DNA of 64,000 bases, taken from positions 4,650,001-4,714,000 of the forward strand of contig JAGIQG010000027.1 in NCBI GenBank assembly GCA_024679065.1, written 5' to 3'. The notes beneath the pieces were generated by a model. It was not told the origin of the DNA. It saw only the letters and a program-made list of their open reading frames with translations, and ran no database searches. Shown in pieces: positions 19,589 through 62,443 of this stretch (positions are counted from its first letter, which is position 1; the number at the start of each line of letters is the position of its first letter). Position numbers and translations under genes: made by a program. The DNA is from Sphyrna mokarran (Eukaryota).

Positions 19589-19605
19589 TGCTGCCACCTA
19601 CTGGA
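19589..19605 (-). promoter_or_regulatory. CTCF motif between HoxB8 and HoxB9
   Basis: Minus strand TCCAGTAGGTGGCAGCA matches the CTCF core CCASYAGRKGGCRS with no mismatch. Confidence 0.75.
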
Positions 19606-29785: not shown

Positions 29786-29869
29786 AACTGGAGTAATTCA
29801 GGCAGTTTCTTGTCACTGCGATCAAACAGAATCCCAACAACATGAAACTACCTAAGTCACACAACAGTT
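29786..29869 (-). ncRNA. mir196a: miR-196 precursor hairpin (mature 5p at 29833-29854)
   Basis: Minus strand reads TAGGTAGTTTCATGTTGTTGGG (miR-196a mature sequence), a loop, then the complementary arm CAGTGACAAGAAACTGCCTGA and lower stem AACTG...CAGTT. Canonical position between Hox9 and Hox10. Confidence 0.97.
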
Positions 29870-33295: not shown

Positions 33296-33567
33296 TCAGA
33301 TGGGGAACGTTGCCGATATTTCTCGAACTCTGTGCTCTCTGCTCATCTTTTTTAGTTTCATTCTTCTGTTTTGAAACCAGATTTTGACTTGTCTGTCGGT
33401 TAGATTGACGCTCCGGCTGATCTCCAGGCGGCGCTCTCGAGTTAAATACATGTTAAAGAGGAATTCCTTCTCTAATTCCAGTGTCTGTTGCTTGGTGTAC
33501 GGGCAGCGCTTCTTCCTTCCACCCTTCGCCGTCAGCCAGTTTATCGTATTTTCAGCCTTTGCACTCT
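33296..33567 (-). CDS. hoxb10: HoxB10 exon 2 (homeodomain)
   Basis: Acceptor GACAG|AG; [87 protein letters not shown] at 33298-33296. Confidence 0.95.
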
Positions 33568-38300: not shown

Positions 38301-38772
38301 TCATAAAATCATTTAGCTATATGTAAGTATATACCTGCATTTACATAATGTTTTACCTTTGCAATGCAACCTTTGTAATTTTAATTGTATCGGTACTTGA
38401 TCTAACTGCAGTATTCTTCTTAAGCATGTCTTGCTTTTGATAATGCTCATTGTTTTTGCCTAGGCGAGTTGTTTGTATTGGGGACTTTTGCAGCGATTTC
38501 CACTGCAGCTAAGGAGTGGCCTTCAGGAGAGGAACAGTCCGCTGTTTTGATCTTCAAAAGGACACTTAAACGTAATTTACTCTGTCGTAAGGGGCCGGTC
38601 CTATAAACTACTCAAGGTATTAATTTGTACTGAGGGGTCATTGTGCTAGGGACAAAAAGGCTCCTTTATGACCTAAATAAAGTCACCTTGCTGCGGATGA
38701 AATTGCGGTAAATGTTGCTTTTCCGACTGCCTTGTAAATGTTTTTCTTCCTTTCGTTCATGGTTTTACCCAC

Positions 38773-39496
38773 CTTTCATTTCCTTCTCGGGGAGGATTTT
38801 GTCGGAACCACGAAACTGGAAAGAGGCTGTGTCTTGTACAAATGCACTTTCTCTTCCCCCTGCGTTCTTTCCTGGGTCTCCACGGCCCGGATCTTTGGCT
38901 GTGCTCATTTTTAATTCTTTTTCACTTGGTTTTGAGGAGGACGACGTGGCGAAAGAAGAAGTGAAGGAAATGCTGGATTGTATAGAGCACGGAGCAGTGA
39001 CTGGCGGTGGCTGGTTGTAATCCGTCGGTTTGTTTGATGAATAGCTCGGTTCGGAACGGAAATAGCTGGGTATGGGAACGCTGCCACTGTCACTTGTGCA
39101 GCTTTCAGAAATCACCCTTGGATAGACTGAGACCTCAGGGTGCGTCTTCGAGTGCTTACCACCGTCTAATAAACAATAGTTGGCTTCTTCCTTCACACTG
39201 GACGCGAAGGAAAAAGAGTTTATCTGCTGAAGTCGGCCTGTGTGGATGGATGGTGACTGGTTTACCCACCCTGCCATGCCTGGCACGTACTGATGTGGAA
39301 CCAAAGCTATACCTTGCTGGCTGTTCATCTCCCCTTGTTTATGATGTGATTGGCCAACTTGCCAGTTCTGAACCCCGTAGCCCTGGTTCGCCCTGGAGGA
39401 CAAATAACCCCCAGGACAATAAGGTTCAGCCCTTCTGGAGCAAATTAAAGACTTCACTGAAAAGGAGCTGGGAGCTGAATTCTCCGAACATGACAT
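38773..39496 (-). CDS. hoxb10: HoxB10 exon 1
   Basis: MSCSENS... N-terminus with group-10 motifs VKEE..YCL and VPIPSYFR; donor G|GTGGGT at 38773/38772 gives phase 1 matching exon 2; spliced CDS is 996 nt (331 aa); intron 5205 nt. Confidence 0.92.
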
Positions 39497-58309: not shown

Positions 58310-59432
58310 TTTCAAATTTTAAAAAGTGTTTTTTCCAGACCGAAATTGAACTTGTCTGTTACGTTTTTCTACTCACCCAACAATAACAAGAATTTCGACT
58401 TATCGCGTCAAATAAACTCCAGATTCCTGGAGTAAAAGCTGTTGTCCCTTTGTTTATGTTCAGTTGGGAAATCTTTCTCCTCGCTCCAATTTTGCTGTTT
58501 GTTACAAGAGGCACCCCAGTCTCTGTCTCTTTTTTCCGTCAGCCAGTTGTCTGTTCGCACATAAAACGTGTACAGACAGGCAATAAAGTGTCTGGCTGCC
58601 GTGTGCCCTCTTTACACAATGCCTTGAAAAACGATTGGTTTTAAAATTCTGCAACGGCGCAAGATATTTCTGCTTCTACCCGCATTTACATGTCATAATC
58701 TCAACATATTTTTGGAAATGTTAAAACTTTGCTGCTTTGGTGAATGGATATTTTAAAACAACTCTAAAAAATACAAGCAGCGTCACTGCAAAAACAAGGT
58801 TGTAAATTGTATTTGATCGTGGGTGTTTCGTGAGAGGTTATCAAAGTTAAAGTACCAAAGGATAATTTAAATTTCAATTCCTCCATATGGGTAAAATCTT
58901 CAGATTTTAAAATGCGGGATTGATAAACAAGAAGATGTATCTTATTTGAACTTTGTTGCCTCGGCCAGCACTCTGGGCAGTTTATGGCCGTATCTGGGGC
59001 GACTGGCTGCAAAGGAGTGAATTTCTCTTGTTATTTCTGTCGCGCAATTGTTTTCCCTCCTGCAGCTTCTAACCTTGAAACGATTCCAGACTTAAACTTT
59101 ATTTCCTGGACGCATTCCCCTGTGGAACTTAGGTGTCCCTCATTCTGAGCGGATGTTTATTTGAGTGAAAATTTAACGCGTTTGGAAACTCAAGCGAAGT
59201 GATTCTATGACAGTCTTGTCTCCTGCAATTTTGCTGGTGGTGATCACAGAAGCCCGTTTCTTTTTTCGAAGGGGCAAGGTCTAGTTAATACAAGTAAATC
59301 TGCATGGTCAACATACATTGCCAATGATCACGTTAAAAACACTACCTAAAATCAAAAGGATCTGTCTCTGCAGTTTGGAGTGCCAGGTAATTCAAAAAAA
59401 TCTGAATCTGGACTATCTTTAGACCCAACTAC
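58310..59432 (-). pseudogene. Degenerate Hox10-like (HoxB10 duplicate) pseudogene
   Basis: Colinear decayed motifs: GSKDSPDSDFF (59426), CRDRSF (59372), MYVDHAD (59318), W...RSCRRE...EIHSFAAS (59088 to about 59000), LPRVLAE (58980), IPHFK (58920), then CAG|AC NWLTEKRDRDWGASCNKQQNWSEEKDF (58548; 12/27 ungapped identity to HoxB10 in this window) and NVTD-QV (58365). Several stops and frameshifts. Confidence 0.7.
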
Positions 59433-60807
59433 AATATTTACTATTCATTTGTATTTTTTTCACTTTTGAGGACAATGTTTGTAGCCTCGTGTTACAATGT
59501 CGTTCAAGGTAGCGAACCACGTGATCTGCTGTATGACCATGTGATCTGTTCAAGCATGCAACATTACTGGTTCCAAACACCTTCGGAGCCAACACTGGTT
59601 CGGAGGCAACGCAAAGTCTTCAGCTTTTAAAACAGACGCTGTTGCTATCTTTTATTATTGCCTTTATTGTGGTGTTGATTTGAAGTGGTAACCATCTAAC
59701 GACAGAACATAAATATTCGTTTGAAAATGCTCCTGCTAAGTTCGTTGCTCAGCTCTTGAAACTATCAAGAAAAAATGCCAATTTTGTTGTAAAGGCCTGT
59801 TGTAGGCGATTGTCCCTTTAATAAAAATAATCTTGGCAGAATCATGGACATTCACTGAATAGCTATTTCAAAACATCTCCTAATTATTTATTTTACTAAA
59901 TTGTTTGCCAAAGTACCATTCAATTTTTATGGATCGTGATATTTGATTTCCAATGTTCTTTCCAGGTGACTTGAGCAATCTGTCTTCCCAAGGAACAGTA
60001 GTTAATTTGTACCAGTCTGGCTGTTATACAATAATTTTAATTACAATTCTATTGAGACGTAGTAATCCAACCAAAAATGAATGTTCCAGTAAGAGCGTAC
60101 AAGTATTAGCTTGTGATTGCCACTGTTCTGCCAATCAAGCATGTGGAATGTGGCATAAATCTCTTTGTTTATTTTCTCTTGAAATTGAAGGCAAAACTGC
60201 AACAGAAGCTTTGAAATATGGATTACCTCCTGTGACTTATTTAAACTTTTCATTGTTGAATGCGTTCCTCTTTTTATATTAAGGACCTGTTTTATTCCCC
60301 ACATTGCAAGAAAGGGAATTGCTCCATATTTCATTATATTGGCTTGGCTCGCACACATTTGCTCAGAAGCTTTTACTGAATTCAGCCTTTTCTTTTGTGA
60401 GCGGGCAAGGTGGGGGAGGGGGGTATCGCTAATGCACCTTTATAGTTAGTTGTATCCGCGAAAAATAATTAATTGAAGTAAAACAAAGGAACACAGAAGA
60501 ATATCATTCATTCATCTGCACGTCGTTGAGTATAGCATAAATTTGAAACTAGATTTATTTTTAATTGCAGTTTATTGAAGAGGTTTGACTCAGGCCTGCG
60601 CCTTAAACATGAGTATGATGAAAAGTTGCAATCATCTTAAAAATAACTCGATACTTAGGGCTAATTAGAATACTGCGCCACAGCAGAAGAGCAATCTTGG
60701 GAACTCGGCTGAGAGCTGAAACAGGCTTGAAAAATAGTCGGTATCGAAAACAATCAATAGAAATATTAGTTATTTTTCGGAAAGAGTGGCTAAGACACTC
60801 TTCGCCA

Positions 60808-62443
60808 CAATATTCTAGCACTCAGAGGGAAGACATAATAAGCATTTTAACGAATACAATTCACCCTGTCGTTAAAGCAACTACAATTTGAGTTAGCTCT
60901 TTTCCCCAACACACGGTCAGAGTTTATTTATCTATTCTCACCCTGCGTATCTTCGACAGGTTAATGGTATTTTAAATGTAATTTTACAACTAAATTCTAC
61001 GCGCATTTTAGGAAACAGAAACATTTGCTCTACATAATGTTCAGCAAAGATCGGGATGTACATCCGTCAGAATCGCGGTTTATATTGTTCTACGTTTTGT
61101 GAACATTATTTTTGCCGATGCTCTGGAAAATAATATTCGATGTCTATACCAACATCGAAACGAATCAATTAATTTGCCTACAAATAAATTGCCGATGTTC
61201 GGACATGCTTCTCCTTGCACTTGGAGCACCCATTACATACCAAGGTCATTATTATCTGAGCTTGTAGAAATGATTATTAAAGAAATTTAACTCTCAATTC
61301 GATCCAGTCACAAAAATATCTGAAGCGGTCGTTTCGGCTATTTTACTGGTACCTAGACATGTATCTTATTTTAACTCTGTACTAATAATGCCCTCCTAGA
61401 AAAAAAGTGAGGGCCTCCTCAAAAATAAACATCTCAAACATTTTTCACCGGCTTACTGTTTATATTATTACATCAAATTCCTTTTTGCGAAAAAACTCTA
61501 CGCATAAGATCACTCCTTCTAAAACACCTCAAAAAACTGGAAGTTGGGAAGTTCTCTGCTTTCAGAAAAAGTTTTAAAATGTAATATTTGTTACAATTAA
61601 ATACGTGTCGACACAGAATAGGTGGCAGGCAATATTCGCAAACATAACACCAGATTAATCTAAAATTGTACCGTTGGTGAGAACATCTCAATAAATGATA
61701 TATCGGCATGATAACCGTAACATTGTGTTAGTTGACATTAGTTCTGGTAACAGAAAAGTATGGAATTCAAGAAGGAGATTAAGGATCTGATTTATCCTCG
61801 AATAAGATCAGCAGATCAGTTGACATTGATGGTGACAAGAGGCCTGTTAACTCTTCATTTACACTTGAAACTTCGCCTAAGTTTTACTATTTACAGTTTG
61901 CGTAATTTTCTGTGCAATTTGAGCATGTTGCATTTAATTCCAGTGTTTAACATTACTCAGTCATTAGTCCTGTGGATGAGACTGTTTTGCACGAAATCAG
62001 TGTTTAGAAACGACGGATTTTCATAAACAGAAATAAATAACTTTAAATGCATCATAAACACGACAAAATAGGCTAGTTAATATCGCATGATTTAATAGGC
62101 CGGGTTAATGTGACAGGTTGGCTTTTTCGTTCTAATGGCTACCCAAGTGATCTGAAAGAAGACTTTAGCAATGCAGGGTGCTCACACTCACAAACTCCAA
62201 TCGCCATTATTGTATGGCAATATTCTAGCACTCATAGGGAAGACATAATAAGCATTTTAACGAATACGATTCACTCTGTCGTTAAAGCAACTACAATTTG
62301 AGTTAGCTCTTTTCCCCAACACACGGTCAGAGTTTATTTACCTATTCTCACCCTACGTATCTTCGACAGGTTAATGGTATTTTAAATGTAATTTTACAAC
62401 TAAATTCTACGCGCATTTTAGGAAACAGAAACATTTGCTCTAC
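60808..62443 (+). repeat. 226-nt direct repeat pair (60808-61033 and 62218-62443)
   Basis: Two copies 1410 nt apart with 5 substitutions counted and no indels. Confidence 0.92.

What the first reader, a model, noticed from the sequence alone, without database searches (positions are those of the whole stretch)
58310..59432. Fossil second Hox10 gene about 19 kb upstream of HoxB10
Seen: on the Hox strand, directly after a phase-1 acceptor (CAG|AC at 58551/58550), the sequence reads NWLTEKRDRDWGASCNKQQNWSEEKDF. This aligns ungapped to this window's HoxB10 [27 protein letters not shown] at 12/27 residues, and the first 13 nt (AACTGGCTGACGG) are identical. A local 1-nt shift restores LE (TTG GAG). 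Further on, AACGTAACAGACAAGTT looks like NLTDRQV with one ACAG unit slipped out. Upstream, exon-1 motifs appear in the right order: GSKDSPDSDF (HoxB10 CSENSAPSSF), EIHSFAAS (INSFSFASS), LPRVLAEA (YPRVISES) and IPHFK-SE (IPSYFRSE). Established: jawed-vertebrate Hox clusters normally hold one gene per paralogue group, and slowly evolving cartilaginous fishes can keep old Hox pseudogenes. Inference: an old tandem duplicate of HoxB10 that decayed. I know of no description of it but could not search.
Basis: partly seen in the sequence, partly recalled or inferred. Interest (0 to 1): 0.92.

Follow-up and report, generated by a model that had tools for sequence, protein, structure and literature searches.

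The report
Fossil Hox10/Hox11 hybrid in shark HoxB
Between HoxB10 and HoxB13 of a shark lies a decayed Hox gene whose homeobox begins like Hox10 and ends like Hox11, probably the first trace of the HoxB11 gene thought absent from jawed vertebrates.

Summary
The fossil is real. A full decayed homeobox exon lies at 58548-58319 on the Hox strand, 18.8 kb upstream of HoxB10 in a shark HoxB cluster. It is single-copy and the only non-gene homeobox hit clearly above background in 146 kb (53.5 bits; next 26.1).

It is probably not a plain HoxB10 duplicate. Its first third (NWLT to helix 1) is Hox10-type. From about homeodomain position 26 it is Hox11-type (INK, L34, S35, L38, tail, stop position). 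A Hox10-to-Hox11 model beats pure Hox10 by 11 bits and pure Hox11 by 22 (1 of 500 and 1 of 490 controls reach this).

Best reading: recombination between HoxB10 and a since-lost HoxB11, by unequal crossover or conversion, then decay. Exon 1 is only weakly recoverable (about 59.8-59.0 kb, leaning Hox10). Contigs from probable RNA runs of two organisms suggest a spliced antisense RNA over the old exon 1. I found no description in the searchable literature, but three key shark Hox papers were not held and a fourth was not opened.

The parts
58467..58548 (-). Fossil exon 2, 5' part: NWLT motif, N-terminal arm and helix 1 (homeodomain -6 to about 20), Hox10-type
   Evidence: 13.2-18.1 bits against A10/B10/C10/D10, 0 of 300 shuffles each; Hox11 1.1-3.9 bits, Hox9 0.6-5.8; cumulative LLR +28.7 bits for group 10 over 11 by position 24
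58319..58466 (-). Fossil exon 2, 3' part: helices 2-3, tail and stop, Hox11-type (INK at 58457-58449, TDRQVKI trace 58412-58391, tail trace 58360-58319); several frameshifts and stops
   Evidence: Anchored 3' model: Hox11 40.6 bits (0 of 150), Hox10 29.6 (5 of 150); LLR swings about 21 bits toward Hox11 after position 25; whole exon 138/226 identical to the mosaic profile, ending on TAA at the Hox11 stop
59030..59810 (-). Probable exon-1 remnant, leaning Hox10-type; best-supported core about 59620-59100; no open frame over 66 codons
   Evidence: Glocal B10, A10 and joint Hox10 profiles 0 of 40 shuffles; Hox11 profiles 11-25 of 40; collinear posterior alignment; rank 1 of 115 genomic windows for the B10 profile only; amino-acid-only profiles 3-8 of 100. 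Tentative.
58549..59029 (-). Inferred intron remnant (about 0.5 kb); no splice donor recognised; the CAG before NWLT may be chance
   Evidence: Inference from the positions of the two exons
59113..60403 (+). Probable antisense spliced RNA across the old exon 1, with an 84-nt GT..AG intron at 59387-59470
   Evidence: Joint seen in 2 of 2 probable-RNA runs (two organisms, two studies) and in 0 of the 2 genomic-type runs; canonical donor CAG|GTAATT and pyrimidine tract plus AG
38768..39496 (-). HoxB10 exon 1 (intact neighbour, likely donor of the 5' part)
   Evidence: ORF; 15 of the 16 homologues found are shark, ray or chimaera Hox10-type proteins by exon 1, several named HoxB10
33296..33567 (-). 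HoxB10 exon 2 (intact)

Best explanation
A dead hybrid Hox gene. The ancestral HoxB cluster still carried a HoxB11 next to HoxB10. The two recombined inside their similar homeoboxes, with a breakpoint between homeodomain positions about 14 and 26. The product joined Hox10-type upstream sequence (probably exon 1, certainly NWLT and helix 1) to Hox11-type helices 2-3, tail and stop. My preferred mechanism (about 0.4 overall) is an anti-Lepore-type unequal crossover giving B11 - [B10/B11 hybrid] - B10, after which the intact B11 was lost and the hybrid decayed. Conversion of HoxB11's 5' part by HoxB10 (about 0.28) gives the same exon 2. Shown: the fossil, its position, its mosaic signal and its broken frames. 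Inferred: HoxB11 as donor, the mechanism, the date. It makes no protein now. The old exon-1 region appears to be reused by a spliced antisense RNA under mild constraint (inferred).
For: Mosaic model 40.6 bits versus pure Hox10 29.6 and pure Hox11 18.8; 10-to-9, 10-to-12 and 10-to-13 hybrids do not beat pure Hox10. Simulated decayed pure Hox10, pure Hox11 and half-Hox10-plus-random reach the observed gain in 0 of 110 each. Real 5' part plus shuffled 3' part: 1 of 500; plus other genomic DNA: 1 of 490. The mosaic beats pure Hox10 in 12 of 12 single-paralogue pairs (10.6-15.7 bits), with amino-acid-only profiles (13.4) and in 6 of 6 parameter settings. The ungapped in-frame stretch 58460-58407 scores BLOSUM +9 to +11 against the three Hox11 and -6 to -8 against the four Hox10. 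It sits in the slot where Hox11 lies in clusters A, C and D. The genome's three Hox11 genes are on the A, C and D contigs, none on the B contig. Exon 1 leans Hox10, as the crossover model predicts.
Against: The Hox11 signal rests on few sites in a stretch with about 40% mismatches and several indels; alone it is only 2.8-5.5 bits unanchored (1-5 of 300). Allowing for four candidate groups, p is about 0.01. The tail alone is not significant (69-221 of 300), and frameshift-aware BLOSUM alignment finds nothing for Hox11 (96-270 of 300). No second Hox11 remnant and no duplicated intergenic DNA were found upstream, although the crossover predicts both. Exon 1 is weak, and its best local nucleotide hit is to HoxA11 (34/56 at 59677-59622; 0 of 100 and 0 of 60), which fits conversion better than crossover. 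No intact NWL-plus-INK protein was seen among the homeodomain proteins listed. All profiles and nulls are my own code, from one genome.
Confidence: 0.68

Rival explanations
1. Plain tandem duplicate of HoxB10 that decayed; the Hox11 look of the 3' part is chance drift in AT-rich DNA.
For: Strong Hox10 5' part. Exon 1 leans Hox10, best to B10. The fossil has Gln at homeodomain 11, as do galeomorph-shark B10s (one site). A pure Hox10 3' model still gains over shuffles (5 of 150).
Against: Decayed pure Hox10 gave the observed mosaic gain in 0 of 110 simulations (mean -15, max +2.4). Random 3' parts gave it in 1 of 500 and 1 of 490. Diagnostic codons I26, N27, K28, L34, S35 (TCC class) and L38 match Hox11.
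Confidence: 0.18
2. A HoxB10 duplicate whose 3' homeobox was overwritten by ectopic conversion from HoxA11, C11 or D11 on another chromosome, so no HoxB11 need have existed.
For: The 3' part matches all three extant Hox11 about equally, C11 slightly best; no other B11 trace was found.
Against: Needs two rare events, one between chromosomes; the fossil lies exactly in the Hox11 slot.
Confidence: 0.07
3. An unrecombined HoxB11 pseudogene, or a lost old paralogue between groups 10 and 11 that kept ancestral NWLT/TLELEKE features.
For: Position; the A11-like local hit in the exon-1 region.
Against: Pure Hox11 simulations reach the observed 21.8-bit gain in 0 of 110. None of the Hox11-type proteins listed carries NWL. 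Hox11 exon-1 profiles score at shuffle level.
Confidence: 0.05
4. Chance resemblance or a repeat.
For: A Pfam scan of the open 55-codon piece and a protein database search find nothing.
Against: 53.5 versus 26.1 bits for the next non-gene hit in 146 kb on both strands; single copy; right strand and slot.
Confidence: 0.02

Closest known systems
Chondrichthyan Hox14 pseudogenes (HoxA14 and HoxB14 of Callorhinchus milii; PMC3707753, passages read)
   Same: Recognisable Hox fossils kept in the slowly evolving clusters of cartilaginous fishes, revealing genes of the gnathostome ancestor
   Different: Those lie at the 5' end of the cluster and belong to one paralogy group; this one lies between B10 and B13 and is a 10/11 mosaic
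Paralogy group 10 (HoxA10/B10/C10/D10)
   Same: NWLT motif, TLELEKE helix 1, probably exon 1
   Different: Lacks the [12 protein letters not shown] helix 2 and the RE.R.RE tail; broken frames
Paralogy group 11 (HoxA11/C11/D11)
   Same: INK..L.LS..L helix-2 region, tail and stop position, cluster slot
   Different: Has the NWLT motif and Hox10 helix 1 that Hox11 lacks; no B member is known (bioRxiv 10.1101/2024.07.20.604409, passages read, states that amniotes lack Hoxb10, 11 and 12)
Anti-Lepore globin hybrids (recalled, not from a call)
   Same: Hybrid gene made by unequal crossover between neighbouring paralogues and left between them
   Different: Here between Hox paralogy groups, ancient and dead; the predicted intact upstream partner is missing
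HOXA10-AS, HOXA11-AS, HOXB-AS4, PRAC2 (PMC8293171, passages read)
   Same: Antisense RNAs at posterior Hox genes or in the HOXB9-B13 gap
   Different: Homology with the shark RNA was not tested

Membership tests
Hox pseudogene (unprocessed) | Homeobox homology beyond chance, on the cluster strand | tested here: met
Hox pseudogene (unprocessed) | Disabled reading frame | tested here: met
   Frameshifts and stops in all three frames of both exons
Hox pseudogene (unprocessed) | Two-exon layout with exon 1 upstream of an intron | tested here: inconclusive
   Collinear exon-1 signal at p about 0.01-0.08 depending on model; no splice sites established
Hox pseudogene (unprocessed) | No sense transcript or protein | not testable with these tools
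   Only contigs were available; they cannot show absence or strand except by splice ends
Hox paralogy group 10 | NWLT motif and Hox10 N-terminal arm and helix 1 | tested here: met
Hox paralogy group 10 | Hox10 helix 2 ([12 protein letters not shown]) and tail | tested here: not met
   LLR about -21 bits against Hox11 after position 25; BLOSUM -6 to -8
Hox paralogy group 11 | YINKEKRLQLSRML helix-2 region and LNRDRLQ..GNPLL tail | tested here: met
   0 of 150 anchored; 1 of 500 and 1 of 490; the tail alone is not significant
Hox paralogy group 11 | No NWL motif; QIRELERE helix 1 | tested here: not met
Hox paralogy group 11 | Hox11 N-terminal domain (PF12045) in exon 1 | tested here: inconclusive
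   Profiles at shuffle level, but one 56-nt A11 hit
Orthologue of a HoxB11 (cluster B origin of the Hox11 part) | Phylogenetic position as a fourth Hox11 ohnologue | not testable with these tools
   No related genomes are held; one decayed copy is too noisy for a tree

The most novel reading that the evidence does not exclude
HoxB11 existed after the second vertebrate genome duplication and survived into the cartilaginous-fish lineage, where it recombined with HoxB10 to form a hybrid between paralogy groups. The gnathostome ancestral Hox inventory gains a gene. HoxB11 was lost separately in bony and cartilaginous fishes, and other sharks, rays or chimaeras may hold a better preserved or intact copy.
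Probability: 0.6. Interest if true: 0.85.

Novelty: new variant of a known kind. Interest (0 to 1): 0.72.

Why it matters
HoxB is the odd vertebrate cluster, with a long gap before Hoxb13 where groups 10-12 are missing in amniotes. In the literature I could search I found no HoxB11 gene or remnant. A Hox11-type remnant in that gap would add a gene to the reconstructed ancestral jawed-vertebrate Hox set and date its loss after the shark/bony-fish split. It would also show recombination between paralogy groups inside a vertebrate Hox cluster, which is normally viewed as frozen since the genome duplications. The claim is directly testable with existing shark, ray and chimaera assemblies.

Tried and rejected
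Frameshift-aware BLOSUM62 alignment of 15 exon-1 proteins: none significant. An early idea that exon 1 is Hox11-type, from the A11 56-nt hit, was not upheld by multi-species Hox11 profiles, but the hit remains unexplained.

A shuffle z of about 4 for exon 1 was checked against real genomic windows. With a fixed background 7 of 78 windows beat it. With local background the B10 profile ranked 1 of 115, but the A10 profile did not. Single other-shark B10 proteins gave 2-17 of 30, with 5 of the 9 not trimmed of exon 2 by a script slip; this was redone as profiles. No single exon-1 segment is significant.

A second possible Hox11 tail at 58307-58270 (DRL..YTG..P.L) was not preferred by the profile alignment and is unresolved.

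No further Hox9-13 fossil was found in 146 kb, including 28 kb beyond B13; no Hox14 model was used. No paralogous non-coding DNA was found around the fossil. No annotated protein from this locus was found (weak evidence). No CTCF-like site near the fossil with a recalled pattern. No RNA holder is on record as RNA, and the two RNA runs do not cover exon 2; neither is evidence on expression. Earlier scan findings: none. The script stopped on an index error after printing its table; the display was redone.

Full report
SETTING. The window holds Hox10, 9, 8, 7 and 6 homeoboxes on the minus strand and miR-196 at 29790-29863. The genome search finds four Hox clusters. This contig also carries Hox13, whose homeobox lies 59 kb beyond the fossil, so this is HoxB. 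The exon-1 homologues of the window's Hox10 are all from sharks, rays or a chimaera; the closest is 96% identical and from Mustelus. The genome has three Hox11 genes, on the A, C and D contigs.

OBSERVATION. The 27-residue match is real and significant: 7 of 235,834 windows score 35 or more, six of them real homeoboxes. In a blind profile scan of 146 kb on both strands the fossil is the only non-gene hit clearly above background: 41.3 bits with the Hox10 model (next 26.4), 35.5 with the Hox11 model (next 25.2) and 53.5 with the mixed model (next 26.1). It is single-copy.

WHAT IT IS. Splitting exon 2 shows two signals. The 5' segment scores 13.2-18.1 bits against the four Hox10 genes (0 of 300 shuffles each) and 1.1-3.9 against Hox11. 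The 3' segment scores 5.5, 4.4 and 2.8 bits against D11, A11 and C11 (1, 2 and 5 of 300) and -1.3 to 1.2 against Hox10 (11-193 of 300).

With codon profiles and a glocal pair-HMM, pure Hox10 gives 29.6 bits, pure Hox11 18.8, and a 10-to-11 switch near homeodomain 21-27 gives 40.6. Switches to groups 9, 12 or 13 do not beat pure Hox10. A position-by-position ratio under a neutral 50:50 alignment rises to +28.7 bits at position 24 and falls to +7.5 at the end. The fall comes from I26, N27, K28, Q33, L34, S35, L38 and tail residues. The breakpoint optimum is 25-26. With a one-base variant seen in both genomic-type runs the plateau widens back to about 14-16. The full exon aligns at 138/226 and ends on a TAA at the Hox11 stop.

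CONTROLS. Simulated decay of pure Hox10, pure Hox11 and half-Hox10-plus-random reproduced the pattern in 0 of 110 each. Replacing the real 3' part by shuffles or by other genomic DNA reached the 11-bit gain in 1 of 500 and 1 of 490; allowing for four candidate groups, p is about 0.01. Anchored 3' models gave Hox11 0 of 150, Hox10 5, Hox9 8, Hox12 25 and Hox13 57 of 150. The result held in 12 of 12 paralogue pairs, without codon information, and in 6 of 6 parameter sets. Against this, protein-level frameshift alignment sees only the Hox10 piece and the tail alone is not significant.

EXON 1. Local searches find nothing for Hox10. They find one in-frame 56-nt match to HoxA11 at 59677-59622 (0 of 100 and 0 of 60 shuffles, best of 15 queries). 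Glocal profiles favour Hox10: B10, joint Hox10 and A10 0 of 40; A11, joint Hox11 and D11 15, 25 and 11 of 40. B10 and A10 profiles fall on the same diagonal over about 59620-59470, and the B10 profile continues to about 59100. Stricter tests weaken this: rank 1 of 115 real windows for B10 but not for A10; 3-8 of 100 for amino-acid-only Hox10 profiles against 45-56 of 100 for Hox11; no single segment significant. I put a Hox10-type exon 1 at about 0.7.

MECHANISM (inferred). Misalignment of adjacent B11 and B10 with a crossover in the homeobox yields B11 - [B10 5'/B11 3'] - B10. This matches the fossil's make-up and position. It predicts an upstream B11 and duplicated intergenic DNA; neither was found, so they would have to be deleted or decayed. 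Conversion of B11 by B10 needs no such loss. It fits the apparently lower decay of the 5' part (best distance 0.2 versus about 0.45), though the 5' part was also selected for being the best preserved.

DATING (rough). Whole-exon decay is about 0.3-0.35 substitutions per site. Fourfold sites between ohnologues differ at 88 of 142, about 0.65 per lineage. That puts gene death very roughly halfway back to the second genome duplication. This is crude: the sites are near saturation and the region may be constrained.

RELATIVES AND RNA. Of 24 listed runs, 23 hold 5-21% of the sampled words and one may be the source. I laid 4 of the 24. Two genomic-type runs from other organisms cover all 30 bins at about 93-95% identity, so the locus is shared among related species. 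Two probable-RNA runs (two organisms, two studies) skip 84 nt with GT..AG ends on the + strand; neither genomic-type run does. The sites are canonical. This indicates an antisense spliced RNA over the old exon 1. Divergence is lower over about 58.9-60.4 kb than downstream in X17 (54/1422 versus 64/904, p 0.0006), and over 58.4-60.4 kb than in its flanks in X14 (105/2030 versus 100/1341, p 0.008), which suggests mild constraint. Most per-site differences (275 rows) were not shown, so no ancestral reconstruction was possible.

LITERATURE. Ten searches. 'HoxB11' with 'pseudogene' gave 0 papers. 'Hoxb11' alone gave 11; 10 were listed, none on fish Hox evolution by title, and I opened one. I read term passages only, not whole texts or supplements, of PMC1845163, PMC3707753, PMC5054437, PMC11979771, PMC8713815, PMC8293171, PMC10115646, PMC2746220, 10.1101/2024.07.20.604409 and 10.1101/2023.04.08.536076. 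None of those passages mentions a pseudogene between B10 and B13. PMC3707753 lists only two Hox14 pseudogenes for the elephant shark. Ravi 2009, King 2011 and Hara 2018 were not held and Oulion 2010 was not looked up. An earlier mention there or in supplements cannot be excluded.

VERDICT. Real Hox fossil: about 0.98. Hox10/Hox11 hybrid implying a lost HoxB11: about 0.68. Plain HoxB10 duplicate: about 0.18. New variant of a known kind; interest 0.72.

Noticed in passing
window 60808-61033 and 62218-62443: A 226-bp direct duplicate, 97.8% identical. Both genomic-type runs have 1182 other letters at 60798-60808, close to the 1184-bp spacer between the copies, so the first copy may be a recent lineage-specific insertion.
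   Followed up: partly
P0121: An annotated Mustelus isoform joins HoxB10 exon 1 to HoxB9 exon 2; P0143 and P0144 look like Hox11 exon 1 joined to a Hox10 homeodomain. Read-through splicing or annotation artefacts.
   Followed up: no
G000:C1648 (L004, L010, L045): This shark has HoxC10 and HoxC11 on a 111-kb, repeat-rich contig, 34 kb apart, in line with reports of a retained but divergent HoxC cluster in some sharks (PMC11979771 passage).
   Followed up: no
G000:C771:95954885-95955097 (-): A weak homeobox-like match (E 5e-4, with 4 stops) about 100 kb 5' of HoxA13 on the opposite strand; possibly Evx1 read across an intron, or another fossil.
   Followed up: no
HoxB10 homeodomain position 11: Gln in five galeomorph sharks, His or Tyr in squalomorphs, batoids and the chimaera; the fossil has a Gln codon. 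One site only, hinting at a late contribution from B10.
   Followed up: partly
window 58307-58270 (-): A second stretch resembling the Hox11 tail (DRL..YTG..P.L..stop) about 50 nt after the first, preceded by a second TDRQV-like stretch; possibly an old internal duplication of the 3' end.
   Followed up: partly
window 19591-19604 (-): One exact match to a recalled CTCF-like pattern between HoxB9 and HoxB8; 18 of 100 shuffles also give a match.
   Followed up: no
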